The notes under the pieces: model-generated
Told to the model about the DNA's origin: nothing
Databases searched by the model: none
The model's input: the letters and a program-made list of their open reading frames with translations, nothing else
NCBI GenBank assembly: GCA_036389535.1
Contig: DASVPT010000238.1
Span: 1-32,173, forward strand
DNA length: 32,173 bases
Source: Actinomycetota bacterium
GTDB taxonomy: Bacteria; Actinomycetota; UBA4738
Direction of reading: 5' to 3'
Translations under genes and position numbers: made by a program
Shown here: positions 2,207 through 28,568 of the stretch, in pieces
Layout of the letters: each line of letters starts with the position of its first letter
Position numbering within the stretch: position 1 is the stretch's first letter

Positions 2207-2622
2207 TGGAAGCGACACGCGGAGCTCGACGCCGCAGGGCGATGGATCCCCGGAGCCCCCGCGCCCTCCCGCTGTGGTTCGGCGTGCTGGCCCCTCCCTT
2301 GGCCTGGCTCGCCCACCTGCTGTTGGGCGACCTGCTCTACGAACTGGGGTGCGCCGCCGGGATGAGGACGAAAGCGATCCTCGGGCTTCGCCTCGATGCG
2401 TGGGCCGTGATCCAGACGGCCGCCCTCCTGAGCATCACGATCGCGGCCGGCATGCTGGCGTTTCGGGCATGGCGCCAGCTGCAGGCGCAGTCGAACGGCG
2501 GATCGCTCGACCGGGCGAAGGCAATGGCGCTGGTCGGCGTGGCCTCGAGCGCGCTGTATACCCTCATCCTTCTGTTCGGGCTGCTCCCATCCATGTTCCT
2601 TCCGGAGTGTCTGCCGCGGTGA
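2206..2622 (+). CDS. Hypothetical small membrane protein (about 3 TM) inside the cta cluster
   Basis: The ATG at 2206 shares one nt with the ctaE stop (TGATG); an alternative ATG lies at 2242. Hydrophobic segments are LPLWFGVLAPPLAWLAHLLLG, AVIQTAALLSITIAAGMLAF and ALVGVASSALYTLILLFGLL. I recognised no family. Confidence 0.55.
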   Translation: MEATRGARRRRAMDPRSPRALPLWFGVLAPPLAWLAHLLLGDLLYELGCAAGMRTKAILGLRLDAWAVIQTAALLSITIAAGMLAFRAWRQLQAQSNGGSLDRAKAMALVGVASSALYTLILLFGLLPSMFLPECLPR

Positions 2623-3533: not shown

Positions 3534-4297
3534 TGCGTTCTGCTCCGGCGCTGGCAAAGGCGTCCGCCGGCGTGCTGATGGCCGGAGCGGCCGCCGGCAT
3601 CGTGGCGTTCATGCCCTCTGCCGCCAGTCCCGCGCCGCAGGTGCGGCCCGCGCCGGTCGCCGGGCGCTCCATCTACCTCCAGGATTGCGCGTGGTGCCAC
3701 GGCCCGGCGGGGGAAGGCACCGACTTCGGACCCACGCTCCGAGGGGTCGGCCCGGCGTCCACGGACTTCATGCTCAGCACCGGGCGCATGCCGATTCCCA
3801 AGCAGATCGACAATCCGCCGCAACGCCCGGTCCGGTACACACGTGAGGAGATCGCTGCCATCACGCAATACGTGGCGTCGTTTGCACCGGGGCCGCCCAT
3901 TCCGCGTGTCGATCCCGGCTCGGGAGACGAAACGCTGGGGCTCTCGCTGTATCAGGCGAACTGCGCAGCGTGCCACGGCGCGACCGGAACCGGCGGCGCG
4001 TTGACCCAGGGACTGCTGGCGCCGAGCGTCCTTGATTCGACACCGCGAGAGATCGCCGAGGCCATGCGGCTGGGCGGGGCAGGATTGTTGAGCGGCAACA
4101 TGCCGAGGTTCGGCCCGGAGCAGTTCGATGAGCGCGACGTCGATTCGATCGTTGCCTACATCGAGCACCTGCCACGCGAGGATCGTGGCGGCTTGAGCCT
4201 TGGAAGGGTCGGTCCCGTCGCCGAAGGGTTCGTCGCCTGGGCCGTCGGGATGCTCACGCTGTATCTGGTCATTCGGTGGATCGGAGAACGCGGATGA
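3530..4297 (+). CDS. qcrC: Cytochrome bc1 complex diheme cytochrome c subunit
   Basis: It has two CXXCH heme c motifs (CAWCH, CAACH), an N-terminal signal-like segment and a C-terminal TM anchor (FVAWAVGMLTLYLVIRW). It sits in the actinobacterial qcrCAB order. The start GTG 3530 or ATG 3533 overlaps the ctaG stop. Confidence 0.9.
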   Translation: MMRSAPALAKASAGVLMAGAAAGIVAFMPSAASPAPQVRPAPVAGRSIYLQDCAWCHGPAGEGTDFGPTLRGVGPASTDFMLSTGRMPIPKQIDNPPQRPVRYTREEIAAITQYVASFAPGPPIPRVDPGSGDETLGLSLYQANCAACHGATGTGGALTQGLLAPSVLDSTPREIAEAMRLGGAGLLSGNMPRFGPEQFDERDVDSIVAYIEHLPREDRGGLSLGRVGPVAEGFVAWAVGMLTLYLVIRWIGERG

Positions 4298-5187
4298 ACG
4301 AGGGCAGCCGGTCGAACGGGCCGATCGAAGCGGACGAGCCGAACGACCCCAGCCGGCGGCCCGCGACCGGCGCGTCCATCGGATGGGCATTCGTCGTGTC
4401 GGCCCTGGCGTCGCTCGGCCTCGCCGTCGTCTACCTGTACGGCGGCCAGCCCCAAGTCGAGGGCGCCCTCATCGGAATCTCGTTGGGCGGCCTGGCGTAT
4501 GGGTTCGTGATGTGGGCCAAGCTGTTTCTTCCCGGCGGCCATTTCGTAGAAGAGCGAAAACCGCTTTCCTCATCCACCGAAGACCGCGAGGAGTTCCTGG
4601 GACGGCTGTCAGAGGGTGGTGGCCTGATCGGGCGCCGAAAATTCCTGTCGAAGCTGCTCTGGACCGCGCTCGGCGCGCTCGGAGCTGCGCTGTTCTTTCC
4701 TCTTCGGTCGCTCGGTCCGAAGCCGGGGCGCTCGCTCTTCAGTACGGCTTGGGGCCCCGGCGTGCGAGTGGTGTCAGAGAGCGGACAGCCCATATCGGTG
4801 AACGACGTTCCGGTGGGCGGCGTGGTGACGGTGTTTCCCGAAAGCAACCCGGAGGCCACCGACGCGCAGGCGCTGCTCATTCGGATGGGAGACGGCTTTC
4901 GACCCTTGCCGGGGCGAGAGCAGTGGGCTCCCGACGGGTACGTGGCGTACTCGAAGATCTGCACCCACGCCGGGTGCCCGGTCGGGCTGTACGAGCAGAA
5001 ACGCGGTCTGCTCTTCTGCCCCTGTCACCAATCCGTATTCAACGCGCTGGATGGCGCGCGGCCGGAGGCGGGGCCCGCGGCGCGTCCACTTCCGCAGCTT
5101 CCGCTCATGGTCGACGGCGAGGGATTCCTCGCGGCGCAGGGTGATTTCTCCGGCCCGGTCGGGCCGGGGTTCTGGAACCTTCCGTGA
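4294..5187 (+). CDS. qcrA: Cytochrome bc1 complex Rieske iron-sulfur subunit
   Basis: The Rieske 2Fe-2S boxes CTHAGCP and CPCHQS are present, with three N-terminal TM segments. The ATG at 4294 follows GGAGAA and overlaps the qcrC stop (ATGA). The ORF-track start at 4276 is less likely. Confidence 0.9.
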   Translation: MNEGSRSNGPIEADEPNDPSRRPATGASIGWAFVVSALASLGLAVVYLYGGQPQVEGALIGISLGGLAYGFVMWAKLFLPGGHFVEERKPLSSSTEDREEFLGRLSEGGGLIGRRKFLSKLLWTALGALGAALFFPLRSLGPKPGRSLFSTAWGPGVRVVSESGQPISVNDVPVGGVVTVFPESNPEATDAQALLIRMGDGFRPLPGREQWAPDGYVAYSKICTHAGCPVGLYEQKRGLLFCPCHQSVFNALDGARPEAGPAARPLPQLPLMVDGEGFLAAQGDFSGPVGPGFWNLP

Positions 5188-6539
5188 TCGTTCGTCGCCT
5201 GACCCGTTGGTTCGACGACCGCCTCGGCGCGACGTCGTGGGCGCGAACGGCGCTCAACAAGGTCTTTCCGGATCACTGGAGCTTCATGCTCGGAGAGATC
5301 GCGATGTACTGCTTCGCGATCCTGGTCCTCACCGGGATCTACCTGACGTTCTTCTTCGTCCCGAGCTCTCGACCGATCACCTATCAGGGAACCTATGGAC
5401 CGCTTCACGGCGCGACGGTATCGGAGGCGTACGCGTCGGTGGTTCGACTCTCGTTCGACGTGCGGGCCGGCCTGGTGTTTCGGCAGGTGCATCACTGGGC
5501 GGCCAACCTGTTCATCGCCTCGATCCTCGTTCACCTGGCGAGGATCTTCTTGACCGGGGCTTTCCGCCGTCCCCGCGAGATCAACTGGATCATCGGCATG
5601 ACGTTGCTGGTGTTCGCCATCTTCAATGGCTTCACCGGGTACTCGCTCCCGGACGACCTGCTCTCCGGTACCGGCCTTCGCATCGCGTACTCCGTCGCCC
5701 TGTCGATCCCGTTCCTCGGGACCTGGCTGGCGTTCCTGGTGTTCGGCGGCGAGTTCCCGGCTCACGACATCATCCCGCGGTTGTTCGTGATGCACGTGAT
5801 GCTGGTGCCGGCCGCGATCATCGGCCTGCTCTCGATTCACCTGGCCATCGTGTGGCATCAAAAGCACACACAGTTCCCGACCGAAGGCCGAACCGAGACG
5901 AACGTCGTCGGCTCGAAGTTGTGGCCGACGTACGCCATGAAGTCGCTCGGCCTCTTCTTCGGCATCGCCGCCGTGCTCGGGCTGCTCGGAGGCCTCGCGC
6001 AGATCAACCCGGTCTGGCTCTACGGCCCGTTCAACGCGACCACGGTGAGCTCCGCCGACCAACCCGACTGGTATCTCGGGTGGATCGAAGGCGCGCTTCG
6101 GCTCTTTCCAGGGTGGGAGACGCGGGGGTTCGGGCACACCGTGGCCAACCCGTTCTTCCCGGGCGTCGTGATGCCCGGCCTCACGTTCTTGACGCTCTAC
6201 CTGTGGCCGTTCATCGAAGCTCGGTTCACCGGCGATCGCGAGCAGCACAATCTGCTGCAGCGCCCCCGGGACCGCTCCGTTCAGACGGGGATCGGGGCGG
6301 GCGCACTCTCGTTCTACGTCGTGCTGTTTCTGGCCGCGAGCAACGACATCGCCGCCAGAATGTTCGGTGTGTCGGTTGGAGCCATCACGTGGGGCTTTCG
6401 GATCGCCGCGATCGTGGTGCCGTGGGTGGTGGGCTTCGTGGTGTACCGCTTGATGCGAGGGCTGAAGGTGAGTGAAGCGGACCGGTTCATCGAGGTGCCG
6501 ATGAGGGCGATCGTGCGAAATCGGGAGGCTGGGCGATGA
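5184..6539 (+). CDS. qcrB: Cytochrome bc1 complex cytochrome b subunit
   Basis: It has cytochrome b N- and C-terminal domain features (RQVHHWAANLFIASILVHL, GYSLPDD, the PDWY motif in DQPDWYLGWIEG). The GTG at 5184 overlaps the qcrA stop (GTGA). Confidence 0.92.
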   Translation: MIVRRLTRWFDDRLGATSWARTALNKVFPDHWSFMLGEIAMYCFAILVLTGIYLTFFFVPSSRPITYQGTYGPLHGATVSEAYASVVRLSFDVRAGLVFRQVHHWAANLFIASILVHLARIFLTGAFRRPREINWIIGMTLLVFAIFNGFTGYSLPDDLLSGTGLRIAYSVALSIPFLGTWLAFLVFGGEFPAHDIIPRLFVMHVMLVPAAIIGLLSIHLAIVWHQKHTQFPTEGRTETNVVGSKLWPTYAMKSLGLFFGIAAVLGLLGGLAQINPVWLYGPFNATTVSSADQPDWYLGWIEGALRLFPGWETRGFGHTVANPFFPGVVMPGLTFLTLYLWPFIEARFTGDREQHNLLQRPRDRSVQTGIGAGALSFYVVLFLAASNDIAARMFGVSVGAITWGFRIAAIVVPWVVGFVVYRLMRGLKVSEADRFIEVPMRAIVRNREAGR

Positions 6540-15672: not shown

Positions 15673-16167
15673 CTAAGAGGTGGGGTCTCGCTGACCGGCC
15701 GCGGACGGGGGTGCCCCGGGCTCGGCGGCTTCGGTCCCCGGCGCGGACGGCCCGTGCGTGCCCTCCGGACGCTCCTCGCCGGCCTCCGCATCTTCGGGCC
15801 GAGCTGCCACTCCCCTCAGCTCCTTCCGCTCCACGGACTCGCTGAACGGTCGGTACGCCCCGGCGGGGTCCCAACCCATGACATCCTGTCCTTCGGGAAC
15901 GAAGCGCACCTGGAATCCTTCCTCCGCTCCCCGAACCTGTGCCGCGGAGCGAAACCAAAGCAAGGTGCCGGGCTGGAGCACGACCGGTCCGGAGGTCCCC
16001 GGCGAGCGAAAGGCCGGGTCGTCCACCATCAGGGGAATGGGCCGGAAGATACGCCGGAACGCCTCGTTCTGGTCGCCGCCGGGCCCCAGCTTCACGCCGC
16101 CGCGCCCCCACGTCGCCGACGCCACGACGCTTTTCGAATCCGCTTCTCGGTAGAACTCGGCGCGCAT
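15673..16167 (-). CDS. Hypothetical protein with a Pro/Glu/Ala-rich C-terminal tail
   Basis: It is a 164-aa ORF with very high third-position GC in this frame (hand check about 85%). The competing frames translate to Arg/Gly/Pro junk. I recognised no domain. Confidence 0.5.
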   Translation of the reverse strand: MRAEFYREADSKSVVASATWGRGGVKLGPGGDQNEAFRRIFRPIPLMVDDPAFRSPGTSGPVVLQPGTLLWFRSAAQVRGAEEGFQVRFVPEGQDVMGWDPAGAYRPFSESVERKELRGVAARPEDAEAGEERPEGTHGPSAPGTEAAEPGAPPSAAGQRDPTS

Positions 16168-16195: not shown

Positions 16196-17152
16196 CTACG
16201 ACTCGGTTCCCACTTCGGGTGCGCCGAATCCGGACCAGACGAACGCCGCGACCAGAGTATGGATCGACATCTCGTGGTCGTATTCGGTGAGGCGGTTCAT
16301 GAGCTCGAGCCGGTCGTCCTCGTTGAACCCGCGCGCCTTCAGAGCCGTCCACTGAAGTTCGATTGGGTGCGGAAGGGCGGCGATGCCGGCCAGGACGGCT
16401 CGGCGAAGCTTCACGGTGCCGGCGTTCCAGACCTGCATCCGCGTGATTCTCCTCAGCTCATTCCAGACCGAGGACAAGCCTGCGGGTCGGGATCCGAGGA
16501 GACGGAGGGCCGCCGGTGCAGAGAGAACGCCGAGAGAACGCTCGATCTCGTCCAGCGTGGCGAGCGCGCCATCGGGCATCGGCTGATCCGCCATCCAGGC
16601 CTGCCAATCCGGCACGCCTCGGCGAATCGGTGGCTCTTCACCGCCCGTTCCGGATATGCGGTCGCCGCGAACGGCACGATAGAGCGCATGGACGACGATC
16701 TGGCTCTTCGCGGAAACCAGGTGAGCGGCTCGCGCGGCCTCTTCGGCTCGTTTCAGTTCGGTTTCCGAAAGCTCCCGTTCGAGGCGCTTGCGGAGATCCG
16801 GCACGTCCCCAGCAGCCCGAACGGCGTCGACCGCCTCCGCTCTCAACCCTCGCGCAAGTGTCAGAAACGTCCTGCCGACGTTGGGACGAATCGCGGACCA
16901 GGCCGACATGAAGAAGGCGGGGAACTCCGCGGCGGCCTCCAGGGCGGGTTCGACCCACGCCGAGCGCAGCGTCTGCCGAACGTCCTCGCGCACGGCGGAC
17001 AGAAGGAGTGCTGGATCGGGCCCGGGAATCGAAGCCCCGTTGCCGTTGCTCTTGGCGGTTTCGACCCCGCCGACGTGCCGGCGTGAACTAATCACTCTGG
17101 TTCCCCGGGCGAATAGTGGGCGAAAGAGCCGGATAAGGCCCTCGGCAATCAT
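16196..17152 (-). CDS. Hypothetical protein, possibly DehI-family (halocarboxylic acid dehydrogenase DehI-like pseudo-dimer fold)
   Basis: It is a 318-aa helical-looking ORF. VREDVRQTLRSAWVEPALEAAAEFPAFFMSAWSAIRP resembles my recollection of the DehI N-terminal motif (EDIRxTLRVPWV...FPxYLxxAW). A weaker second copy is LDEIERSLGVLSAPAALRLLGSRPAGLSSVW. The family assignment is from memory only. Confidence 0.55.
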   Translation of the reverse strand: MIAEGLIRLFRPLFARGTRVISSRRHVGGVETAKSNGNGASIPGPDPALLLSAVREDVRQTLRSAWVEPALEAAAEFPAFFMSAWSAIRPNVGRTFLTLARGLRAEAVDAVRAAGDVPDLRKRLERELSETELKRAEEAARAAHLVSAKSQIVVHALYRAVRGDRISGTGGEEPPIRRGVPDWQAWMADQPMPDGALATLDEIERSLGVLSAPAALRLLGSRPAGLSSVWNELRRITRMQVWNAGTVKLRRAVLAGIAALPHPIELQWTALKARGFNEDDRLELMNRLTEYDHEMSIHTLVAAFVWSGFGAPEVGTES

Positions 17153-18803: not shown

Positions 18804-19435
18804 GACGACCGAACCGGCGGAGGAACCTGCTCGATTCGAAGGCGCAGCACCTCATCGACCGAGGAGCACTCCGCGAGCACTTGAAGGGTTTTCAGCGTCG
18901 GCCACATCAGCTGGACATCGCCTGCCTCAGCCGCCTCGAGCAGCTCCTGCGCCGACCCCCACCACGCCCGCTCGGCCTCGACACCATCGGGATGAGGATC
19001 CATGCCTGAACCCGCTCGAACGGCGAAGAACCGCGCGTCGAACCGGACCGGAATGAACTCGGGAGCGATCCATCTGGCGATCTCGGGAAGCGCTTCGAGC
19101 GGTGGCGGGGGAAGGGCGCCGTCGCCGCCGGGAACTCCACCCGGACGCTCGATCACGCCGTCGCCAGTCACGACGAGGCCGACCTCTTCCGAGAGCTCGC
19201 GGAGCGCGCAGGCCCGCGCCGCCTCCGCGGCGGACCCGAACCACTCCTCCGCCAGCCGCGTGTCCTGCGGCTCGACCACTCCGCCCGGAAACACCATGAA
19301 CCCGGGAAGGAACCGGCTGGTGCTCGAGCGTTTCAGGACCAGGAACTCCAGCCGTCCTTGCACCACCTCGCGCACCACCACCACCGTGGCCGCCGCGCGC
19401 ATCGTCCGTGGAGCCGCGTCATCGGGATTTTGCAT
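18800..19435 (-). CDS. NUDIX hydrolase
   Basis: The Nudix box is GGVVEPQDTRLAEEWFGSAAEAARACALRELSEEVGL (an extended GX5EX7REUXEEXGU). The start may instead be the ATG at 19402 (MRAAATVVVV...). Confidence 0.85.
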   Translation of the reverse strand: MQNPDDAAPRTMRAAATVVVVREVVQGRLEFLVLKRSSTSRFLPGFMVFPGGVVEPQDTRLAEEWFGSAAEAARACALRELSEEVGLVVTGDGVIERPGGVPGGDGALPPPPLEALPEIARWIAPEFIPVRFDARFFAVRAGSGMDPHPDGVEAERAWWGSAQELLEAAEAGDVQLMWPTLKTLQVLAECSSVDEVLRLRIEQVPPPVRSS

Positions 19436-19441
19436 GCGGCC

Positions 19442-20542
19442 ATGATGCCAACCTCCGGGTCAGGTGATGGACTGGCCGCACGGCTTCGCGCGCGTATCGC
19501 AGAGCACGGCCCGATCACCTTCGCGGAGTTCATGGACGCGGCGCTCTATGACCCGGACGAGGGCTTCTACTCCCGACTCGTGGTAGGCGAGGAGGGCGAC
19601 TTCGTCACCAGCCCGCACATCTCTCCGCTGTTCGGGTCGCTGGTCGCTCGGCAGGTGGAGGATTTTTGGGACCTGCTCGATCGCCCCGACCCCTTCACCG
19701 TCGTCGAGGTCGGTGCCAGCGTCGGGACGCTCGCGCACCAAGTTCTCGGCGCTGTGATCCCTCCGGTCTGGCAATCGATCCGTTACGTCGCCGTCGAGCG
19801 GAGCGGAGAAGCCCGCGAAACCGCCCGCTCCACGGGCCTCGAGGTCGCACCGATGCTGAGCGACGTCCCCGCCGGAGCCGCGGGTTGCGTGCTGGCGAAC
19901 GAGCTTCTCGACAACCTCCCCTTTCACCGCGTCCGCGGTACAGGCGAAGGCATCGTCGAGCTGTTCGTCGCCCTCGAAGATGAACGCTTCGTCCTGCGCG
20001 AGGGGCCTCCATCCTCCGACGAGATCCGCCGGTGGACGCCGCAACTTAGCCCCGGCCAGGACGGTGTGGTCAACCTCGAAGCGCTTCGCTTCCTGGACTC
20101 CGCGGGGGCCCTCCTCGATCGCGGATACGTGTGGGTCGTCGACTACGGGTTCGATTTGGCCGGGGCATCGTCGGTCCACGGCTACCGAGGACATCGGCTG
20201 GAGGAGGACGTCCTGGCCCAACCGGGCTCACGGGACATCACCGCCGGCGTCGACTTCGGGGCGCTCGCAGAGCACGCGCACTCGCTCGATCTCTCCATTT
20301 GGGGGCCGGTCACCCAGCGAGAGGCCCTGTTCGCCCTGGGTTACGCGGAGTGGGAGGAAGCGGCTCGATCGGCGCAAGCCGAATACCTGTCGGAGCGTCG
20401 CGGCATTCAGGCAATGCGAACGTTTTCGGACCGGAACCGCGCACGAATGTTGATCGACCCGGGCGGACCGGGCGGCTTCTACGTGATGTGCTTCGGGGTG
20501 CGAACCGGCGACCGGCCGCCGCAGGCCTTCAGGAACGCCTGA
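19442..20542 (+). CDS. SAM-dependent methyltransferase, MidA/NDUFAF7 (DUF185) family
   Basis: ITFAEFMDAALYDPDEGFY, GDFVTSPHISPLFG, VVEVGAS.GTLA and ANELLDNLPFHRV are characteristic of the DUF185/MidA family. Confidence 0.85.
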   Translation: MMPTSGSGDGLAARLRARIAEHGPITFAEFMDAALYDPDEGFYSRLVVGEEGDFVTSPHISPLFGSLVARQVEDFWDLLDRPDPFTVVEVGASVGTLAHQVLGAVIPPVWQSIRYVAVERSGEARETARSTGLEVAPMLSDVPAGAAGCVLANELLDNLPFHRVRGTGEGIVELFVALEDERFVLREGPPSSDEIRRWTPQLSPGQDGVVNLEALRFLDSAGALLDRGYVWVVDYGFDLAGASSVHGYRGHRLEEDVLAQPGSRDITAGVDFGALAEHAHSLDLSIWGPVTQREALFALGYAEWEEAARSAQAEYLSERRGIQAMRTFSDRNRARMLIDPGGPGGFYVMCFGVRTGDRPPQAFRNA

Positions 20543-20969
20543 GTCGCAGCACGAAGTACCCGGTCCCGGCCGCCACGAACGCGCCGGCGATCTCTGTGAG
20601 CGACGCCGCCTTCGTCACGGCCGAGACGTGCCCGTCGACGAACGAGTCGCTGAAGACGCTCCACGTCGGCAGCCAGTGAGCCCCGATGAACCCCAGTCCC
20701 AGTACCAAGCCGCCGATCAGGGCGGCCTGCGGAGCTCGTGGGTGCCTCACCAGCATGAGAACCACCACGATGGCGGTGAGCACGCTGCCGGCGATACCGA
20801 TCGTCCGAAGCTGCGCGCTGATGGTCCCGGCGCCCCGGTGCACATGGTCGTAGTTGTGCCAGACGGCTCCTGCGGCGAAGAACAGCGCCCCCCACTGCAG
20901 TGCGCGGTCGCCGGGCCGAACCTCGGTGTGCGCCGTTCGCCTGGTTGGCTCTGTCGCGGTGGTCGCCAT
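20529..20969 (-). CDS. Hypothetical 4-TM membrane protein, His-rich, co-transcribed with the orphan nuoD
   Basis: It is the 146-aa C-terminal part of the artefactual ORF 20529..22136. The ATG at 20969 is preceded by AAGGAGAGG and lies 23 nt after the nuoD stop. Four hydrophobic helices are present. His residues cluster in WHNYDHVHRG, GAHWLP and DGHV. Confidence 0.6.
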   Translation of the reverse strand: MATTATEPTRRTAHTEVRPGDRALQWGALFFAAGAVWHNYDHVHRGAGTISAQLRTIGIAGSVLTAIVVVLMLVRHPRAPQAALIGGLVLGLGFIGAHWLPTWSVFSDSFVDGHVSAVTKAASLTEIAGAFVAAGTGYFVLRLRRS

Positions 20970-20992
20970 CCGCCTCTCCTTTTGAAGATCGC

Positions 20993-22180
20993 TTAGCGGT
21001 CGACGTCGCCGACCACGAAGAACACGCTGCCCAGAATGGCGATCAGGTCGGGAACAAGCGTCCCCGGAAGCAAGGCGGGGATCATCGCCACGTTGTTGAA
21101 CGACGCCGTGCGCATCTTGAGGCGATAGGGGTAGTCGCCTCCGTCGCCGACCAGGTAATAGCCCATCAGCCCGAGCGGGTTCTCGGTCCTCACGTAGATC
21201 TCGCCCTCGGGGATCTTCATCTTCTTGGGCAGCTTCGGCGAGATGTACTGTCCGGGAGGAAGCTTGTCCATGCACTGCTCGATGATCTTGCAGGACTCCC
21301 ACATCCGCTGGACCAACACCCACAACCGGTCGTAGGAATCGCCGTTTCGTCCGACCGGAACGTCGAACTCCACCTCGCCGTACTTCTCGTACGGCTCGTC
21401 CTTCCTGGGATCCATGGCGACGCCGCTCGCCTGGAGCACTGGCCCGCTGCATCCATAGGCGATGGCGACGTCCGCGGGGAGGACTCCAATTCCGTCGGTG
21501 CGGGCGTGAATGATCTCGTTGCCCATGATGAGGGTCTCGAAGTCGCGCAGCTTCTTGCGCGTCCAATCGAGGACCTCCCATGAATGTTTCAGGAAGCCGC
21601 GCGGAAGGTCGTCCTTCAGCCCTCCGATCCGGACGTACGAATGGTGCATCCGCGCCCCGGTGGCGGATTCCATGAGGCCCTGGATCATCTCTCGCTCGCG
21701 AAATGCGTAGAACATGGGCGTCATCGCGCCCAGCTCCAACGGGAACGAACCCGTGAACATCAGGTGGTTCAGCAGCCGGTTCCACTCGGCCATCATGGTT
21801 CGGATCCACTGCGCCCGTTCGGGAACCTCGACGCCCAGCATGCGCTCGACCGCCATGATCCATCCCAGCTCGTTGTTGAACGCCGACAGCCAGTCGTGGC
21901 GGTTCATGAGTACGAGGACCTGGCGGGGGTCTCGGTACTCTGAAAGCTTCTCCGCGGCGCGGTGCATGTACCCAATGACGGGCTCGGCCGAGATGATCCG
22001 CTCGCCGTCCAGCTCGAGCACAATGCGAAGCACGCCGTGGGTCGACGGGTGCTGCGGCCCGATGTTGAGGATCATCTCCTCGGTTCGAAGAGGACCCTCC
22101 ACCACCACATCGATGCCGCCGCCGCGGACCATCCACGCGTCGCTGGCGGCGGTGTACTGAGCGCGTTCCTGAATGTCCAT
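20993..22180 (-). CDS. nuoD: NADH-quinone oxidoreductase subunit D (49 kDa / NDUFS2 / Nqo4 homolog), stand-alone copy
   Basis: NIGPQHPSTHGVLR, IGYMHRAAEKL, YAFREREMI, HHSYVRIGG and the C-terminal VVGDVDR are present. There are no hydrogenase CxxC motifs and no adjacent nuo genes. Confidence 0.92.
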   Translation of the reverse strand: MDIQERAQYTAASDAWMVRGGGIDVVVEGPLRTEEMILNIGPQHPSTHGVLRIVLELDGERIISAEPVIGYMHRAAEKLSEYRDPRQVLVLMNRHDWLSAFNNELGWIMAVERMLGVEVPERAQWIRTMMAEWNRLLNHLMFTGSFPLELGAMTPMFYAFREREMIQGLMESATGARMHHSYVRIGGLKDDLPRGFLKHSWEVLDWTRKKLRDFETLIMGNEIIHARTDGIGVLPADVAIAYGCSGPVLQASGVAMDPRKDEPYEKYGEVEFDVPVGRNGDSYDRLWVLVQRMWESCKIIEQCMDKLPPGQYISPKLPKKMKIPEGEIYVRTENPLGLMGYYLVGDGGDYPYRLKMRTASFNNVAMIPALLPGTLVPDLIAILGSVFFVVGDVDR

Positions 22181-22258
22181 CAGTGAAAAGAGAGCCGGGC
22201 CACCAATCCGGGAGGGTAGCAGGTGCGTTCAGCCATCAACTGGCAAGGAAAACACCTG

Positions 22259-22287
22259 TTGCTGGCGAAACGCGCGAAGCGTACTCT
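22259..22287 (+). promoter_or_regulatory. Putative sigma-A-type promoter for the delta-60 repeat gene
   Basis: The sequence is TTGCTG-17 nt-TACTCT, ending 12 nt before the ATG at 22300. No Shine-Dalgarno is visible, so the leader would be very short. An imperfect inverted repeat (CAGGTG 22220-22225 / CACCTG 22253-22258) abuts the -35. Confidence 0.3.
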
Positions 22288-22299
22288 GCGACACAGCTG

Positions 22300-23607
22300 A
22301 TGTTTAGCTCGTGCCCGAGAACCACCCTTATTTTCGGCGTTGTGGCGGTCACGCTATGCCTCTTTCTCCCTTCCCCGGCTTACGCAACCGCTGGTGATCT
22401 CGACACAACTTTCAGTCGCAACGGCAAGCTCCATTTCGAATTCGGGGCGGGGACAAATGGAGCGCAGGGCGTGGCCGTTCAGTCGGACGGAAAAATCGTG
22501 TTTGGGGGGTCGATCTCCGCAGACGGATGCGACCACACTCCATACGGCCGGTTCTCTGTTGCTCGGGTCAATCCGAACGGGACGTTCGACTCGACGTTCG
22601 CCGGAGATGGCAAGCGAACCGTCAACGTAGGTTCCGACTGCTATGAGGGGGGATTCGCCCTCGCGCTTCAACCCGATGGAAAGATCCTGCTTGCAGGATC
22701 AGCAGATGGCCGGTTCGCGGTGGTGCGCCTGAACCCCAATGGGACGCTCGACGGGAACTTCTCGCATGACGGAAAGCGAGTCCTCTGGACAGGCGACTCC
22801 GCACTCGAAGGCTTTGCGTTTGACGTCGCGGTACAAAGTGACGGAAAGATCGTCCTAGCGGGTCAGGGATGGCACGGGGATGACGTCGCGGTCGCACGAC
22901 TCAATCCACGTGGGGGCTTTGATCCAACATTCGGTGATGGACGAGGGTTCGTCACCACGGACGTCGTTGGCGCCTCTGACCGCGCAAACGCGTTGGCTAT
23001 TCAGCCCGATGGGAAGATCGTCGTTGCCGGACACGGGGGCGATCACGGCAATGGAAACGACTGGCTTGTAATCCGTTACAACCCGGATGGCTCGCTCGAT
23101 ACGAACTTCGCCGTTGGGGGGATCTTCACCCTGTTCATTGGGGACGCCATCGGTTCGGGGGCGCAAGGCGTCGCAATTCAGAAGGACGGAAAGATCGTAA
23201 CCGGCGGCGAGGCGCCATTTGATGAGACGGGTGGCGATTTCGTCGCCGTGCGTTTAACAGCCACTGGCACCCTGGACAATGAATTTTCCTCCGACGGCAT
23301 AGTCTCCACGAACTTCGGCCCGAACTCTGGAGACGGTGCGGACGCTGTCGTGCTCCAAGGCGACGGGAAAATAATTCTGGGAGGTAACACTGACGCCACG
23401 AGCGACGTGGATCCGGTATTCGCCCTTGCGAGGTACACAACTTCAGGGGAACTCGACCCATCGTTCGGCAATGGTGGATTGGTGACGACCCGGATAAGCC
23501 ACGGGGACCGCCTTCTCGATCTCGCTTTCCGGTCGAAGCGGATCGTCGCCGCCGGGTTCACTTGGGGATGCTGCCGTATGGCCCTGGCGCGCTACGTGAG
23601 CGACTAG
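22300..23607 (+). CDS. Secreted delta-60 repeat domain protein (predicted 7-bladed beta-propeller)
   Basis: The ATG at 22300 gives a signal peptide (MFSSCPRTTLIFGVVAVTLCLFLPSPAYA|TAG). Seven ~60-aa repeats follow the pattern G.LD..F..DGK...A.A.Q.DGKIV.AG...(V/A)RLN. The ORF-track start at 22183 abuts the nuoD start and is unlikely. Confidence 0.8.
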   Translation: MFSSCPRTTLIFGVVAVTLCLFLPSPAYATAGDLDTTFSRNGKLHFEFGAGTNGAQGVAVQSDGKIVFGGSISADGCDHTPYGRFSVARVNPNGTFDSTFAGDGKRTVNVGSDCYEGGFALALQPDGKILLAGSADGRFAVVRLNPNGTLDGNFSHDGKRVLWTGDSALEGFAFDVAVQSDGKIVLAGQGWHGDDVAVARLNPRGGFDPTFGDGRGFVTTDVVGASDRANALAIQPDGKIVVAGHGGDHGNGNDWLVIRYNPDGSLDTNFAVGGIFTLFIGDAIGSGAQGVAIQKDGKIVTGGEAPFDETGGDFVAVRLTATGTLDNEFSSDGIVSTNFGPNSGDGADAVVLQGDGKIILGGNTDATSDVDPVFALARYTTSGELDPSFGNGGLVTTRISHGDRLLDLAFRSKRIVAAGFTWGCCRMALARYVSD

Positions 23608-24141: not shown

Positions 24142-25314
24142 ATGGATTTCAGCATCCCGGACGAGTACCAGGAGCTGCTGACCTCCTTCCGATCATTCCT
24201 CGACAGGGAGGTGGCCCCGGTTGAGGACCGATATCGGGTCCAGCTTCAAGAAGACGAGTTCGGCGAGGAGATGCACGAGGCCGGGCTGGCCCTGAGACGC
24301 CGCTCGGCCGAGCTCGGCTTCTACGCGGCGCACATGCCCGAATCGGTCGGCGGCTGGGGTCTCTCGAACCTCGGCTACACCCTTCTGGTGGAGGAGGGCG
24401 GGAAGTCGGGGCTGCGGTTCGCCAGCTTTGTCCTGGGGCCGCCGAATCCCGAATCCCCCAATCCCATCCTCATGGACCTGCCCCGGCATCTGCACGAGAA
24501 GTACGTCGAGCCGCTGGTTCGCGGCGAGACGACCATGTGCTTCGCGCTCACCGAGCCGGATGCGGGATCCGACGCGCAGGCCATCCAAACCACCGCCACC
24601 CTCGACGGCGACGAGTGGGTTCTGAACGGCCGAAAGCACTTCATCACGAACGGGGCCAATGCCGACATCGCCGTGGTGTTCGCGGTCACCGACGCCGAGA
24701 AGCGCGCGGCGGGCGGCATCACCGCGTTCCTGGTCGAGCGCGACGCACCCGGGTTCGTGGTCGGACGAAAGCAGCGAACGCTGGCCGGAGACACCAACCA
24801 GGCGGAGCTCATCTTCGACGACTGTCGAGTCCCGAAAGAGAACGTCATCGGCGAGGTGGGGTTCGGATTCGGCTCGGCCATGAAGTTCCTCAACGCGGGC
24901 CGCGCCTACATCGGCGCGATGTGCGTCGGGGTGGCGGACTACCTGGTTCGAATCTGCACGGACTATGCGAAGGAGCGGAGCACCTTCGGAAAGCCGATCG
25001 GCAAGTACCAGGCGATCCAGTGGATGTTGGCCGACTCTGCGCTCGAGGTCTACGCCGCCCGGCTGATGACGTATCACCTGGCGTGGCTGGTCGACCAGGG
25101 CGACCAACCGATAAAGGAGTCCTCGTTCGTCAAGCTCAACAACACCGAGATGGTGAACCGCGTCGCCGACCGCGCCGTGCAGATCTACGGCGGAATGGGG
25201 CTCCTCACGGAGGGGCCGGTGGAGCGAATCTTCCGGTGGGTTCGGATGCTGCGAATCGTCGAAGGGACCAGCGAGATTCAGCGGTTCATCATCGCCCGCG
25301 CCCTCGGGCTGTGA
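24142..25314 (+). CDS. Acyl-CoA dehydrogenase
   Basis: It has a typical ACAD N-terminus (MDFSIPDEYQELLTSFRSFLDREVAP), CFALTEPDAGSD, and the C-terminal QIYGGMG...RIVEGTSEIQR. Confidence 0.92.
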   Translation: MDFSIPDEYQELLTSFRSFLDREVAPVEDRYRVQLQEDEFGEEMHEAGLALRRRSAELGFYAAHMPESVGGWGLSNLGYTLLVEEGGKSGLRFASFVLGPPNPESPNPILMDLPRHLHEKYVEPLVRGETTMCFALTEPDAGSDAQAIQTTATLDGDEWVLNGRKHFITNGANADIAVVFAVTDAEKRAAGGITAFLVERDAPGFVVGRKQRTLAGDTNQAELIFDDCRVPKENVIGEVGFGFGSAMKFLNAGRAYIGAMCVGVADYLVRICTDYAKERSTFGKPIGKYQAIQWMLADSALEVYAARLMTYHLAWLVDQGDQPIKESSFVKLNNTEMVNRVADRAVQIYGGMGLLTEGPVERIFRWVRMLRIVEGTSEIQRFIIARALGL

Positions 25315-26666
25315 GCCGAACGGATACCCGGCCCAAGATTCCGTCGGTGGACGCACTACTTCGATCCGACCCGGGCCGGAAGGTCGCCCAGAAGCTCGGA
25401 CGCGCCGTCCTGAAACAGGCGCTCCAGGCGACCCTCACCGACATCAGGGCCGAGGCGGCGCGAGGGAGTCCCATCCCGGAGGACGCCGTCATCCTGGCCA
25501 GAGCAGCCGGCGCCGCCGCCCGGAACTACTACGGGCTCAGCGAGGTCATCAACGCCACCGGCGTCATCCTTCACACGGGCCTTGGTCGAGCGCCGCTTCC
25601 GGAACGCGCCGCACATGCGGCAGCCAACGCCGCCCGCGGCTACTCCGATCTGGAAGTCGAGCGCGAGACCGGCGCGCGCGGCAGGCGCACGGCGCGGGCC
25701 GAGGCGCTGCTGAAGTCGCTCACCGGCGCGGAGGACGCCCTGGTGGTCAACAACAACGCGGCGGCCCTGTTGCTGACGCTTTCGGCGCTGGCAGCCCGGC
25801 GGGAAGTGCTGGTCTCCCGAGGGGAGCTCATCGAGATCGGCGGCGAGTTTCGACTTCCCGAGATCATGGCGGCGTCTGGCGCCAAGCTGGTCGAGGTGGG
25901 CACCACCAACCGCACGCGAGCCGGCGACTACCAACGCGCCATCGGCCCGAAGACCGCCCTCATCCTCAAGGTGCATCCGAGCAACTACCGCGTCGTCGGC
26001 TTCACGAACTCGGTCGGCGTGTCCGAGCTCGCCGAGACCGCACGCCGCGCGGGGATTCCGCTCGCGTACGACGTTGGTAGCGGCCTCCTCGATCGCTATC
26101 CGGGCGTTCCGCGAGACGAACCGAGCGTCGCCGAGGCGCTCTCGGGCGGCGCTGACGTCGTGACGTTCTCCGGCGACAAGCTGCTGGGCGGACCGCAGGC
26201 GGGTGTGATCGCCGGCGCCGCACCGCTGATCGAACGGCTTCGCCGCCATCCCATCGCCCGCGCGGTTCGAATCGACAAGATGACGGTCGCGTCGCTGGAG
26301 GCGGTGCTTCGGCTCTATGCCACGGACCGCCGCGGCGAGATTCCCATCTGGCAGATGCTGTCCACGCCGCAGTCCTCGCTGTTCAATCGGGCCCAGGCAC
26401 TGGCGGCGATCTTCCCCGGCGCAACTGCACGAAAGAGCGAGGCCGCGGTGGGTGGCGGCTCCGTCCCGGGATACGCGGTTCCTTCGGCCGAGCTCGTTGT
26501 GCCCGTCGACTCACCGGCCGAGATCGCAGCGAGGCTCCGGATGGGACGCCCGCCAGTCTTTTGCCGGGTCGAGGACGCGGCACTGGTATTCGATGTCGTC
26601 ACCGTGTCAGCGGAGGACGAAGACCGTATGGTTCGGGCCATCCGCTACGCCCTCGAGCAGGGCTGA
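25311..26666 (+). CDS. selA: L-seryl-tRNA(Sec) selenium transferase
   Basis: The GTG at 25311 overlaps the ACAD stop (GTGA). The N-terminus is IPSVDALLR, followed by INATGVILHTGLGRAP and the PLP-lysine motif FSGDKLLGGPQAG. The 5' part of ORF 24537..26666 is an out-of-frame read through the ACAD gene. Confidence 0.9.
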   Translation: MSRTDTRPKIPSVDALLRSDPGRKVAQKLGRAVLKQALQATLTDIRAEAARGSPIPEDAVILARAAGAAARNYYGLSEVINATGVILHTGLGRAPLPERAAHAAANAARGYSDLEVERETGARGRRTARAEALLKSLTGAEDALVVNNNAAALLLTLSALAARREVLVSRGELIEIGGEFRLPEIMAASGAKLVEVGTTNRTRAGDYQRAIGPKTALILKVHPSNYRVVGFTNSVGVSELAETARRAGIPLAYDVGSGLLDRYPGVPRDEPSVAEALSGGADVVTFSGDKLLGGPQAGVIAGAAPLIERLRRHPIARAVRIDKMTVASLEAVLRLYATDRRGEIPIWQMLSTPQSSLFNRAQALAAIFPGATARKSEAAVGGGSVPGYAVPSAELVVPVDSPAEIAARLRMGRPPVFCRVEDAALVFDVVTVSAEDEDRMVRAIRYALEQG

Positions 26667-26681
26667 CCCGAGCGAACGCAG

Positions 26682-28568
26682 GTGAGCGCCGCCGAACCGG
26701 CCAGCGTGACGAGGAGCTCCCCCTCGCTGCACGTAGTGGCGACGGCGGGGCACGTCGACCACGGCAAGTCGGCGCTCATCCTCCGGCTCACCGGCATGGA
26801 CCCCGACCGCCTGGCCGAGGAGAAACGCCGGGGCCTGACCATCGACCTCGGATTCGCCTGGACGACGCTCGAGTCCGGACACGAGGTCGGATTCGTCGAC
26901 GTGCCAGGCCATGAGCGGTTCGTTCGAAACATGCTCGCCGGCGTCGGTCCTGTCCGCCTCGTGCTCTTCGTGGTCGCGGCCGACGAAGGATGGAAGCCCC
27001 AATCCGAGGAACATCTCCAGATCCTGGACGTCCTCGGCGTCGACGGCGCCGTGGTCGCACTGACCAAGGTCGATCAGGTCGATTCGGAGACGCGGAACAA
27101 CCGAACCGCCGAAGTGACGGCCAAGCTCGAGGGAACGGCGCTGGCCGGTGCTCCCATCGTCGGGTGCTCGGCGGTTACGGGTGAAGGGATGGCCGACGTT
27201 CGCGCGGCGCTTGACGCGACCATCGGGAGCGCCACTCCTGCCGAAGCGCTGGGGCGGGCCCGGCAGTTCATCGACCGGGTGTTCACCGTCAAAGGTTCCG
27301 GGACGGTGGTCACCGGCACGCTGACGGGCGGCGCTCTTCACGCCGGCGACGAAGCCGAGGTCCTTCCCTCGGGACACCGAGCGAGGATTCGCGGCCTCCA
27401 GACGCACAAGCGCCCGCTGACCATCGCCCGGCCGGTCTCGCGGGTCGCGGTGAACCTGGCGGGAACCCCGAAGGAGAACCTCGAGCGAGGCGACGTGCTG
27501 ACCGTCCCGGGACAGTGGCGCGCGACCTCGGTCATCGAAGGATCGATGCGAACGGTTCGCGGCCTCGGCCATGCGCTGTCCGCACGCGGCGCCTTCAAGC
27601 TCTACGCGGGGTCCGCGGAGCGAGACGCGCGCATCCGCCTCTATGGACCGCGAGAGCTCCGGGCCGGTGAGGAAGCGTTCGTTCGAGTGACGCTTTCCCG
27701 TCCGCTGGTCCTGGACTTCAAGGACAGCTTCGTCCTGCGCGAGGCCGGGCGACAGGAGACCGTCGCGGGCGGCGTCGTGCTGGATACCGAACCGCCCCTT
27801 CGGTCGACCGGCGACCCGATCGCCAGGCTTCAGGCCCGACAGGATGCCGATCGCGCCGGGCTGGCCTGGCGAGTGGTCGTGGACCGGGGCGCCCTTCGGG
27901 CATCCGAGATGAAATTCCTGGCCGGCGTGGGGCCGGGCGACGCAGAGAGCCGAGGGGCCGCGCGCGTCGGCGCGTGGCTGATGACTCCCGAGTTGTTGGA
28001 GCTTGCAAGCGAAACCGTGATCGGCGCCGTGTCTGACCTCCACGAAAGGCATCCGCTCCAACGCGGCATGGAGGTCCCGCAGGTCCACTCGCTCCTGACC
28101 GGTGTCTCCCGTGCGTTCGCCGACCCCGGGCTGAGCGAGGCGTTGCTCGAGCACCTCGTTGGCGCGGGAGGAGTGCAGCGAGAGGAAAACATCGTCCGCC
28201 TGCCGGACCACGGGGCGCTCACCGCGGGACGCGAAGACGCGGACCGTCTCGTCAGCCGCATAGAGGCGGCCGAGCCAATGCCACCCTCCGTCAAGGAGCT
28301 GGCATCAGAAGGTTTCGACCGCGAATTGATCCAGGCGGCGTGCACCGACGGCCGGCTGGTGCGCGTCTCGCCGGACGTCGTGGTCACGCCACACTTTCTG
28401 GCGCGAGCCGAGGAGGTGGTTCGAGAACGAAGCGCCGACGGCGTCACCGTATCGGCGTTTCGCGAAGCCCTCGGAACGACGCGAAAATATGCGCTGCCGA
28501 TCCTCGAGTACTTCGACGAGAGGAGGATCACGCGCCGCAAGGGCGACGTGAGAGTGCTGAAGGAGTAA
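26682..28568 (+). CDS. selB: Selenocysteine-specific translation elongation factor
   Basis: The GTPase motifs AGHVDHGKS, DVPGHERF and TKVD are present. The C-terminal winged-helix region has VSAFREALGTTRKYALPILEYFD, typical of the SelB mRNA-binding domain. Confidence 0.92.
   Translation: MSAAEPASVTRSSPSLHVVATAGHVDHGKSALILRLTGMDPDRLAEEKRRGLTIDLGFAWTTLESGHEVGFVDVPGHERFVRNMLAGVGPVRLVLFVVAADEGWKPQSEEHLQILDVLGVDGAVVALTKVDQVDSETRNNRTAEVTAKLEGTALAGAPIVGCSAVTGEGMADVRAALDATIGSATPAEALGRARQFIDRVFTVKGSGTVVTGTLTGGALHAGDEAEVLPSGHRARIRGLQTHKRPLTIARPVSRVAVNLAGTPKENLERGDVLTVPGQWRATSVIEGSMRTVRGLGHALSARGAFKLYAGSAERDARIRLYGPRELRAGEEAFVRVTLSRPLVLDFKDSFVLREAGRQETVAGGVVLDTEPPLRSTGDPIARLQARQDADRAGLAWRVVVDRGALRASEMKFLAGVGPGDAESRGAARVGAWLMTPELLELASETVIGAVSDLHERHPLQRGMEVPQVHSLLTGVSRAFADPGLSEALLEHLVGAGGVQREENIVRLPDHGALTAGREDADRLVSRIEAAEPMPPSVKELASEGFDRELIQAACTDGRLVRVSPDVVVTPHFLARAEEVVRERSADGVTVSAFREALGTTRKYALPILEYFDERRITRRKGDVRVLKE

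What the first reader, a model, noticed from the sequence alone, without database searches (positions are those of the whole stretch)
19442..22180. Orphan nuoD plus His-rich 4-TM protein operon converging on a MidA/NDUFAF7-type methyltransferase
A full-length NuoD (NDUFS2/Nqo4 homolog) sits with no nuoA/B/C or other nuo genes around it. Upstream is a divergent secreted-protein gene. Downstream is only a 146-aa four-helix membrane protein with clustered His residues and its own AAGGAGAGG ribosome site. Converging on this pair, with a 14-nt 3' overlap, is a DUF185/MidA methyltransferase. Its mitochondrial ortholog NDUFAF7 has one established substrate: an Arg of NDUFS2 in the G(L/Y)xHRGxEK loop. 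This NuoD keeps that Arg (IGYMHRAAEK, R74, codon 21959-21961). Linkage of enzyme and substrate homologs outside a complex I operon suggests two possibilities. One is an undescribed NuoD-based membrane redox module; the other is a methylation-dependent maturation step in bacteria. The bacterial role of MidA is essentially unstudied.
Basis: partly seen in the sequence, partly recalled or inferred. Interest (0 to 1): 0.7.

Follow-up and report, generated by a model that had tools for sequence, protein, structure and literature searches.

The report
Orphan NuoD2 paired with MidA methyltransferase
A stand-alone copy of a respiratory complex I subunit sits beside a homologue of the enzyme that methylates that same subunit in mitochondria, and this pairing recurs across many actinobacteria, which suggests a maturation step that has not been studied in bacteria.

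Summary
All three genes are real and lie at the stated coordinates. No other nuo gene is in the window.

The 395-aa protein is a true NuoD, but it belongs to a separate clade. In this clade the quinone-binding Tyr (Thermus Y87) is Trp. In this lineage the Asp (D139) is Glu. Both changes are invariant in 82 relatives.

The earliest branch of the clade sits inside an 11-gene nuoABCDHIJKLMN operon that lacks E, F and G, in Ca. Actinomarinales. All other members are orphans, like the separately encoded nuoD2 of Streptomyces.

A PF02636 (MidA/NDUFAF7-type) gene stays next to this NuoD in at least four gene arrangements:
- 44 of 47 informative loci of the window's lineage;
- 19 of 21 informative metagenome loci of other Actinomycetes, in one case with a 4-nt overlap;
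- directly after the Actinomarinales operon.

The 146-aa membrane protein is not part of the system. Only the two nearest relatives carry it there. Other genomes hold unrelated genes at that spot, and a homologue in Nocardioidaceae lies in another context.

Verdict: the enzyme–substrate linkage is supported. The "NuoD + 4-TM redox module" is not supported. I could not test whether this lineage also carries the membrane-arm genes.

The parts
20993..22180 (-). nuoD2-type gene: 395-aa NuoD/NDUFS2 homologue of the Trp-type clade
   Evidence: Pfam and NCBIfam. PDB alignment. 73-95% identical in 80 species-level MAGs. Falls in the Trp-type clade in a neighbour-joining tree, bootstrap 86.
21959..21961 (-). 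Codon of R74, equivalent to the dimethylated Arg of mitochondrial NDUFS2 (HRGxEK loop)
   Evidence: Alignment to mouse NDUFS2. Arg in 81 of 82 family members. Coordinates checked.
21890..21892 (-). Codon of W97, replacing the quinone-ligand Tyr (Thermus Nqo4 Y87)
   Evidence: Alignment. Invariant in 82 of 82. Also Trp in the nearest 50%-identity clusters, whereas 80 of 150 representatives are Tyr/Asp.
21734..21736 (-). Codon of E149, replacing Thermus Nqo4 D139 (partner of H38)
   Evidence: Alignment. Invariant in 82 of 82.
22037..22039 (-). Codon of H48, equivalent to Thermus H38, retained
19442..20542 (+). MidA/NDUFAF7-type (PF02636) methyltransferase, convergent on nuoD2
   Evidence: Linked to Trp-type NuoD in 44 of 47 and 19 of 21 informative loci.
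19712..19726 (+). SAM-binding glycine loop of MidA. It reads GASVG here, against GAGDG in 54 of 66 relatives.
20529..20969 (-). 146-aa four-helix membrane protein. Probably co-transcribed with nuoD2 here, but a lineage-specific insert rather than part of the conserved system.
   Evidence: Present at this spot only in L005 and L006. Other genomes carry other inserts there. Family of 26 proteins. Unrelated context in Nocardioidaceae.
20529..20542 (.). 14-nt overlap of the 3' ends of the 146-aa ORF and the methyltransferase gene

Best explanation
The 395-aa gene is a NuoD2-type subunit. It belongs to a distinct actinobacterial NuoD clade in which the quinone-site Tyr is Trp and, in this lineage, the Asp is Glu.

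The ancestral home of the clade is an 11-gene nuo operon without the NADH module (no nuoE, F or G). Ca. Actinomarinales still has that layout. In the ancestor of the high-GC lineages, nuoD2 left the operon and has since been encoded alone, as in Streptomyces.

The PF02636 methyltransferase has travelled with it. It is most likely its maturation factor. By analogy with NDUFAF7 acting on NDUFS2, it would methylate R74 in the HR(G/A)xEK loop before or during assembly with a NuoB2 subunit and a membrane arm encoded elsewhere.

What is shown: family and clade membership, the residue changes, and the conserved linkage.
What is inferred: the methylation of R74, and the existence of partner nuo2 genes in this lineage.

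The 146-aa membrane protein is an incidental insert at a variable spot between the two genes.
For: Family assignments.

Residues: W97, E149, H48, R94 and H179 are invariant, and R74 is Arg in 81 of 82.

Constraint: NuoD is the most conserved gene of the locus (median 80% identity, against 46% for MidA and 63% for SelA). It is more conserved than MidA in 57 of 57 loci.

Clade: the Trp-type clade has bootstrap 86 of 100 with the operon-encoded Actinomarinales NuoD as first branch. All orphans group together at 99 of 100.

Actinomarinales layout: nuoA-B-C-D-H-I-J-K-L-M-N, then PF02636 on the same strand. The literature identifies this as the EFG-less paralogue that exists beside a full 14-gene operon (PMC7771536; bioRxiv 10.1101/2021.02.01.429150).

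Streptomyces: nuoD2 lies apart from the nuoA2-B2-H2..N2 operon (PMC8388888, PMC3765725).

Linkage:
- 44 of 47 informative loci in the window's lineage;
- Nocardioidaceae and other Actinomycetes;
- 19 of 21 informative metagenome loci;
- a 4-nt MidA/NuoD overlap in L144.

In the two groups, the genes surrounding the pair are unrelated. They are selA, nudix and MBL in one group, and the fol-pan core region in the other.
Against: I could not retrieve any nuoB2 or nuoH2-N2 genes for the window's lineage. None lies within 10 kb in about 150 orphan loci.

In the window the two genes are convergent, so they are not co-transcribed.

The target Arg is also kept in most canonical NuoDs (128 of 150 representatives), so keeping it proves nothing.

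The window's own MidA has an atypical SAM loop, GASVG.

Two Actinomycetes loci (L095, L096) and three loci of the window's lineage have the orphan NuoD without MidA nearby.

Some orphan NuoDs have eroded quinone-site loops. That fits poorly with a working quinone reductase in those lineages.

No biochemistry exists for any bacterial MidA.
Confidence: 0.6

Rival explanations
1. Stand-alone system. The orphan Trp-type NuoD and MidA work as a two-protein unit that does not assemble with any nuo membrane arm. The NuoD fold has been recruited to a new role.
For: No nuo partner lies within 10 kb in about 150 loci. In class Actinomycetes the gene occupies a fixed slot in the fol-pan core-genome region. 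Many of these orphans have eroded quinone-site loops yet are retained.
Against: The window's lineage keeps H48, R94 and H179 invariant. In complex I these are the residues near cluster N2 and the quinone. It also shows 73-95% identity, typical of a subunit with many contacts. The earliest branch of the clade is encoded inside a complete 11-gene operon. Streptomyces has a D-less nuo2 operon that needs a NuoD (PMC8388888).
Confidence: 0.15
2. Sole nuoD. The lineage has one complex I whose nuoD has simply moved away from the rest of the operon. The first reader listed this as a way to refute the lead.
For: I could not exclude it, because the rest of the genomes could not be searched. The very high conservation would suit an essential single-copy subunit.
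Against: The protein falls in a clade separate from canonical Tyr/Asp NuoDs. Members of that clade coexist with a full nuoA-N operon that has its own nuoD, both in Streptomyces and in Ca. Actinomarinales (PMC8388888, PMC7771536). Its best PDB matches are Thermus and cyanobacterial proteins, not mycobacterial NuoD.
Confidence: 0.1
3. Inhibitor-resistant spare part. The Trp-type NuoD swaps into the canonical complex I and makes it insensitive to piericidin- or rotenone-type quinone-site inhibitors made by soil neighbours.
For: Y87W mutants strongly resist quinone-site inhibitors, and Y87W was reported in NuoD of piericidin-producing Streptomyces (PMC4758237). The lineage lives in soil.
Against: The change is fixed across a whole phylum-level clade, including streamlined marine Actinomarinales where it sits in its own operon. 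No biosynthetic or resistance context lies around the gene. This idea does not explain the MidA link.
Confidence: 0.1
4. NuoD and the 146-aa four-helix protein form a new membrane redox module.
For: In the window the two genes are 23 nt apart on one strand and the second has a good ribosome site. The small protein has three invariant His.
Against: It is present at this spot only in the two nearest relatives. The same gap elsewhere is empty or holds BNR-repeat, AAA, subtilase or GNAT genes. The family has only 26 members, and its Nocardioidaceae homologue lies far from any NuoD or MidA. NuoD carries no redox cofactor of its own (established knowledge of complex I).
Confidence: 0.02
5. The NuoD-MidA adjacency is inherited synteny with no functional meaning.
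For: Within the window's lineage the whole selB-selA-nuoD-midA-nudix-MBL block is syntenic. The two genes are convergent there.
Against: The pair persists while everything around it changes, and it appears in four orientations. In L144 the reading frames overlap by 4 nt. The eukaryotic orthologues are an enzyme-substrate pair.
Confidence: 0.05

Closest known systems
Streptomyces nuoD2 and the nuo2 operon (nuoA2, B2, H2-N2)
   Same: An extra NuoD encoded away from all other nuo genes in an actinobacterium. It is assumed to serve a second complex without the NADH module (PMC8388888, PMC3765725). The high-GC orphans examined here (Nocardioidaceae and others) form one clade with the window's protein.
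   Different: I could not read a Streptomyces nuoD2 sequence or its neighbours, so its Trp/Glu signature and its MidA neighbour are not verified. The window's lineage is a separate uncultured group with a different genomic slot (selA side rather than the fol-pan region). The papers do not mention a methyltransferase partner.
EFG-less 11-gene nuo operon of Ca. Actinomarinales, followed by an NDUFAF7 homologue
   Same: Trp/Glu-type NuoD (50% identical) and a PF02636 gene in the same unit. The association was noted in bioRxiv 10.1101/2021.02.01.429150. F420 was proposed as donor in PMC7771536.
   Different: There NuoD is inside the operon with A, B, C and H-N. Here it is alone with MidA.
Mitochondrial NDUFAF7 (MidA) acting on NDUFS2 Arg85
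   Same: Homologous enzyme family (PF02636) and homologous substrate family. The Arg and its loop are conserved (PMC3750175 for the modification).
   Different: MidA identity is low and its best PDB matches are uncharacterised bacterial DUF185 proteins. No methylation has been shown in any bacterium. The NuoD partner is a divergent paralogue, not the canonical subunit.
Y87W / Y144W quinone-site variants of NuoD (49-kDa subunit)
   Same: The same Tyr-to-Trp substitution at the quinone head-group ligand (PMC4758237).
   Different: Those are laboratory mutants or reported strain-specific variants linked to inhibitor resistance. Here the Trp is a clade-wide, ancient character, coupled to Asp-to-Glu.
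Other 11-subunit complex I relatives (cyanobacterial NDH-1, archaeal Fpo)
   Same: No NuoEFG, and a non-NADH donor. NdhH is the second-best solved-structure match.
   Different: The NdhH in the alignment keeps the Tyr and Asp, and Fpo is reported to keep the Tyr. FpoD scores 339 bits against a cut-off of 600.

Membership tests
NuoD / NDUFS2 / Nqo4 (PF00346, NCBIfam PRK06075) | Full-length match to the family profile above the curated cut-off | tested here: met
   PF00346 296 bits (cut-off 24). NF004739 437.5 bits (cut-off 360). TIGR01962 444.7 bits, just below its 459 cut-off.
NuoD / NDUFS2 / Nqo4 (PF00346, NCBIfam PRK06075) | Loss of the four [NiFe] cysteine ligands of the hydrogenase ancestor | tested here: met
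   The N-terminal site reads HRAAEK and the C-terminal site VGDVDR, with no Cys. The hydrogenase profile hit is only 22 bits.
NuoD / NDUFS2 / Nqo4 (PF00346, NCBIfam PRK06075) | Canonical quinone head-group ligands: His (Tt H38), Tyr (Tt Y87) and Asp (Tt D139) | tested here: not met
   His is kept. Tyr is Trp and Asp is Glu, invariant in 82 sequences. It is therefore a NuoD by descent and fold but not a canonical quinone site.
NuoD / NDUFS2 / Nqo4 (PF00346, NCBIfam PRK06075) | Encoded with the other nuo genes | tested here: not met
   No nuo gene in the window or within 10 kb in about 150 related loci.
Trp-type NuoD2 clade of the EFG-less actinobacterial complex | Groups with the NuoD of the 11-gene operon and with other orphan NuoDs, apart from Tyr-type NuoDs | tested here: met
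   Neighbour-joining tree: Trp-type bipartition 86 of 100, orphans 99 of 100.
Trp-type NuoD2 clade of the EFG-less actinobacterial complex | Partner genes nuoA2, B2 and H2-N2 in the same genome | not testable with these tools
MidA / NDUFAF7 (PF02636, COG1565) | Match to the family profile above the cut-off and to solved family members | tested here: met
   132 bits (cut-off 23.3). 1zkd 7e-27, 4f3n 6e-24, Dictyostelium NDUFAF7 homologue 4e-19.
MidA / NDUFAF7 (PF02636, COG1565) | Intact SAM-binding GxGxG loop | tested here: inconclusive
   The window has GASVG (middle Gly replaced by Ser), unique among 66 relatives. The relatives have GAG(D/T/H/S/R)G.
MidA / NDUFAF7 (PF02636, COG1565) | Symmetric dimethylation of the HRGxEK Arg of the NuoD/NDUFS2 partner | not testable with these tools
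   The Arg is present (R74, 81 of 82), but only mass spectrometry can show modification.
MidA / NDUFAF7 (PF02636, COG1565) | Functional association with complex I (tested here as genomic association) | tested here: met
   Linked to Trp-type NuoD in 44 of 47 and 19 of 21 informative loci, and it follows the 11-gene operon in Actinomarinales.
146-aa membrane protein: any described family | Profile or fold match | tested here: not met
   No Pfam or NCBIfam hit. Foldseek against PDB gives only generic four-helix bundles, best E=0.38.

The most novel reading that the evidence does not exclude
The orphan Trp-type NuoD and its MidA partner form a self-contained, phylum-wide two-protein system that no longer belongs to any complex I-like assembly. 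A complex I catalytic-core fold, still matured by arginine methylation, would have been recruited to a new and unknown role. In most Actinomycetes it would be fixed in the fol-pan core-genome region.
Probability: 0.15. Interest if true: 0.8.

Novelty: new variant of a known kind. Interest (0 to 1): 0.55.

Why it matters
NDUFAF7/MidA is an essential assembly factor of mitochondrial complex I. What its bacterial homologues do has not been tested.

Here the homologue proves to be a faithful genomic companion of one particular NuoD paralogue across Actinomycetota. That paralogue has a rebuilt quinone site. The same family includes the orphan nuoD2 of Streptomyces, a genetically tractable organism.

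This yields a direct experiment: delete midA or nuoD2, then look for dimethyl-arginine and for assembly of the second complex, the one without an NADH module. That experiment would address three things:
- where complex I assembly factors came from;
- what the widespread "nuo2" enzymes do;
- why their quinone site carries Trp in place of the otherwise essential Tyr.

Tried and rejected
1. Partner nuo genes of the window's lineage. I looked for nuoB, nuoC and nuoH-N by tblastn, using the full Actinomarinales set against all fetched loci and the window. Only NuoD and MidA hit.

2. The 146-aa protein as a partner. I tested this by synteny, a homologue search, a context look-up, a structure prediction and a fold search. 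All were negative.

3. Promoter and terminator scan of 19000-22600. Nothing above the shuffled expectation.

4. tRNA scan for selC next to selA/selB. None in the window.

5. Literature searches for a described bacterial MidA-NuoD link. They returned only the Actinomarina preprint remark.

6. Reading the gene as a hydrogenase large subunit. Rejected: no Cys ligands and a weak profile hit.

7. FpoD. Rejected: 339 bits against a cut-off of 600.

8. All were repeated correctly.
Full report
**Observation**

The three genes exist as described.
- The 395-aa ORF at 20993-22180 (-) matches Pfam Complex1_49kDa (E=2e-88). It scores 437 bits on the NCBIfam NuoD model PRK06075, whose cut-off is 360.
- Twenty-three nucleotides downstream on the same strand lies a 146-aa ORF (20529-20969). 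AAGGAGAGG sits 3 nt before its ATG. AlphaFold predicts four helices with pLDDT 85.
- The 366-aa ORF at 19442-20542 (+) matches PF02636/Methyltransf_28 (E=3e-38). It also matches the solved DUF185 proteins and the Dictyostelium NDUFAF7 homologue.
- The 3' ends of the last two genes overlap by 14 nt.
- R74 in IGYMHRAAEK aligns with the Arg of mouse NDUFS2 HRGTEK.

The rest of the window encodes CtaD, a CtaG-type assembly factor, QcrC/A/B, an M50 protease, an amidohydrolase and AdnA/AdnB. It also encodes two hypothetical proteins, Crp, a metallo-beta-lactamase-fold protein and a Nudix protein. The remaining genes are a secreted delta-60 repeat protein, a flavin reductase, an acyl-CoA dehydrogenase, SelA, SelB and a cyclase-STAND protein. 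A tblastn search with a complete NuoA-N set finds only NuoD.

**What kind of NuoD it is**

Aligned to Thermus Nqo4, the protein keeps H38 (H48 here), R84 and H169. The quinone head-group ligand Y87 is Trp (W97), and D139 is Glu (E149). A scan of species-representative genomes returned 80 loci, all from uncultured Actinomycetota MAGs, with NuoD 73-95% identical. In 82 sequences W97, E149, H48, R94 and H179 are invariant, and R74 is Arg in 81.

NuoD is the most conserved gene of the locus. Its median identity is 80%, against 63% for SelA and 46% for MidA.

A search of 1.8 billion cluster representatives gave this picture:
- The nearest outside clusters (56%, about 60% and 50% identity) also carry Trp and Glu.
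- A wider set carries Trp with a variable second position.
- 80 of the 150 best representatives are canonical Tyr/Asp.

In a neighbour-joining tree the Trp-type sequences form one group (bootstrap 86 of 100). All orphan NuoDs group together (99 of 100). The first branch is a 33%-GC organism's NuoD.

**Where the relatives sit**

The 33%-GC relative is encoded in nuoA-B-C-D-H-I-J-K-L-M-N, next to a heliorhodopsin and an iron-uptake cluster. That matches the published description of Ca. Actinomarinales. Those genomes have a full 14-gene nuo operon plus this EFG-less paralogue, for which F420 was suggested as donor (PMC7771536).

The 56%-identical group belongs to Nocardioidaceae/Propionibacteriales. 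There NuoD is an orphan. More divergent Trp-type orphans from other Actinomycetes occupy a fixed slot between the pan/nad genes and DUF3180-folK-folB-folP-folE-ftsH.

Two papers state that Streptomyces has a complete nuoA-N operon and a second cluster nuoA2, B2, H2-N2 without the N-module. They add that nuoD2 is encoded separately (PMC8388888, PMC3765725). An orphan nuoD in an actinobacterium is therefore a known layout. The window's gene is best read as a nuoD2-type gene of a separate, uncultured lineage.

**The methyltransferase link**

This is the part of the lead that holds up and grows stronger.
- Window's lineage: 44 of 47 loci with at least 6 kb downstream of NuoD contain the MidA homologue. 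It is always convergent. In 36 of 61 loci the two stop codons are within 350 nt.
- Nocardioidaceae: MidA lies upstream on the same strand, separated by one to three genes.
- Locus L094: MidA is divergent, about 35 nt away.
- Ca. Actinomarinales: MidA directly follows nuoN on the same strand. A heliorhodopsin preprint noted this in passing (10.1101/2021.02.01.429150).
- Metagenome scan with an alignment of Actinomycetes Trp-type NuoDs: 66 Trp-type loci, of which 43 contain MidA. Of the 21 loci with at least 5 kb on both sides, 19 have MidA within 5.7 kb, mostly upstream and co-directional.
- Locus L144: the MidA reading frame overlaps the NuoD start by 4 nt.

The genes around the pair are unrelated between the window's lineage (selA, nudix, MBL) and the other Actinomycetes (fol-pan region). 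The pair has therefore stayed together through rearrangement. The four Tyr-type loci caught by the same scan lie inside nuoABC-D-HIJK operons.

**The 146-aa protein**

It is found after NuoD only in the two closest relatives (L005, L006). Elsewhere the gap is empty or holds a BNR-repeat protein, an AAA_14/DUF4143 ATPase, a subtilase or a GNAT. A search of 5.8 billion proteins finds only 26 relatives. A Nocardioidaceae homologue lies between an AraC/DJ-1 regulator and pfkB/aldolase genes, with no NuoD or MidA nearby.

The family has conserved HNxDHxRRG and AHWLPTWSxxSDSF motifs. It has no profile or fold match. It is an accessory insert at a variable spot. It is probably co-transcribed with nuoD2 in this genome, but it is not part of the conserved system.

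**Mechanism**

Shown:
- a NuoD paralogue clade with a rebuilt quinone site;
- descent from an operon without the NADH module;
- a conserved PF02636 companion.

Inferred:
- MidA methylates R74 as NDUFAF7 does with NDUFS2 R85. The modification itself is documented in PMC3750175. The enzyme assignment is established knowledge of the family.
- NuoD2 then joins a NuoB2 subunit and a membrane arm encoded elsewhere. The result would be a complex I-like enzyme that feeds the menaquinone pool of the Qcr-Cta chain present in the same window.

Trp in place of the Tyr is known from mutants to abolish decyl-ubiquinone reduction and to confer inhibitor resistance (PMC4758237). The site must therefore work differently from canonical complex I.

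Weak points:
- No partner nuo genes could be retrieved for this lineage.
- The Arg is also kept in most canonical NuoDs.
- The window's own MidA has an unusual GASVG SAM loop.
- A few genomes have the orphan without a nearby MidA.
- Several Actinomycetes orphans have eroded quinone loops. This keeps open a stand-alone, non-respiratory role.

**Verdict**

The enzyme-substrate linkage is real, widespread and largely undescribed. The "NuoD + 4-TM module" is not supported, and the orphan status itself is a known actinobacterial arrangement.

I rate this a new variant of a known kind, with moderate to good interest, because it makes the function of bacterial MidA directly testable.

Noticed in passing
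window 19712-19726: The SAM-binding glycine loop of this MidA reads GASVG (middle Gly replaced by Ser). 54 of 66 relatives have GAGDG and none shares the Ser. This copy may be weakened, or it may be a tolerated variant.
   Followed up: partly
window 20529-20969; proteins P0450-P0475: The 146-aa protein defines a very small family (26 proteins in 5.8 billion) of four-helix membrane proteins. It has invariant HNxDHxRRG and AHWLPTWSxxSDSF motifs and three invariant His. No family or fold match; function unknown.
   Followed up: yes
between NuoD and MidA in L008, L037-L084 (e.g. L048 11198-12673): The NuoD-MidA intergenic spot is an insertion hot spot in this lineage. About a dozen genomes carry a ~485-aa BNR-repeat protein there. 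Others carry an AAA_14/DUF4143 ATPase, a subtilase, a GNAT or unknown ORFs.
   Followed up: partly
L092 6860-11182; L095, L096 10001-11160; L094: In class Actinomycetes the orphan NuoD sits in a fixed slot of the conserved ftsH-folE-folP-folB-folK-DUF3180 ... panC-panD-nadB-nadC-coaX-lysS region, often with two bPH_2 genes between it and MidA. Several of these NuoDs have eroded beta1-beta2 and D139 loops. The two loci without MidA nearby (L095, L096) are among the eroded ones.
   Followed up: partly
window 25311-28568: selA and selB lie next to nuoD2, and this synteny holds through most of the lineage. There is no tRNA-Sec gene in the window (0 tRNAs), and no selenoprotein gene was identified.
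   Followed up: partly
window 1-6539: The window also carries ctaD (cut at the edge), a Caa3_CtaG assembly factor and qcrC-qcrA-qcrB. This is the actinobacterial menaquinol:cytochrome c / aa3 branch, so the organism is an aerobic menaquinone respirer.
   Followed up: no
L175-L179 (e.g. L176 1488-2594): Four high-GC metagenome contigs carry Tyr-type NuoDs (43-44% identical) inside nuoA-B-C-D-H-I-J-K... operons without E, F or G. EFG-less operons with a canonical quinone site therefore also exist in these soils.
   Followed up: no
window 16196-17152 and 15673-16167 (-): Two hypothetical proteins (318 aa and 164 aa) with no family match are conserved next to Crp and AdnA across most of the lineage.
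   Followed up: no
PMC4758237: The Y87W reported for NuoD of piericidin-producing Streptomyces may reflect the Trp-type nuoD2 paralogue rather than a strain-specific resistance change in the canonical subunit. I could not check this here.
   Followed up: no
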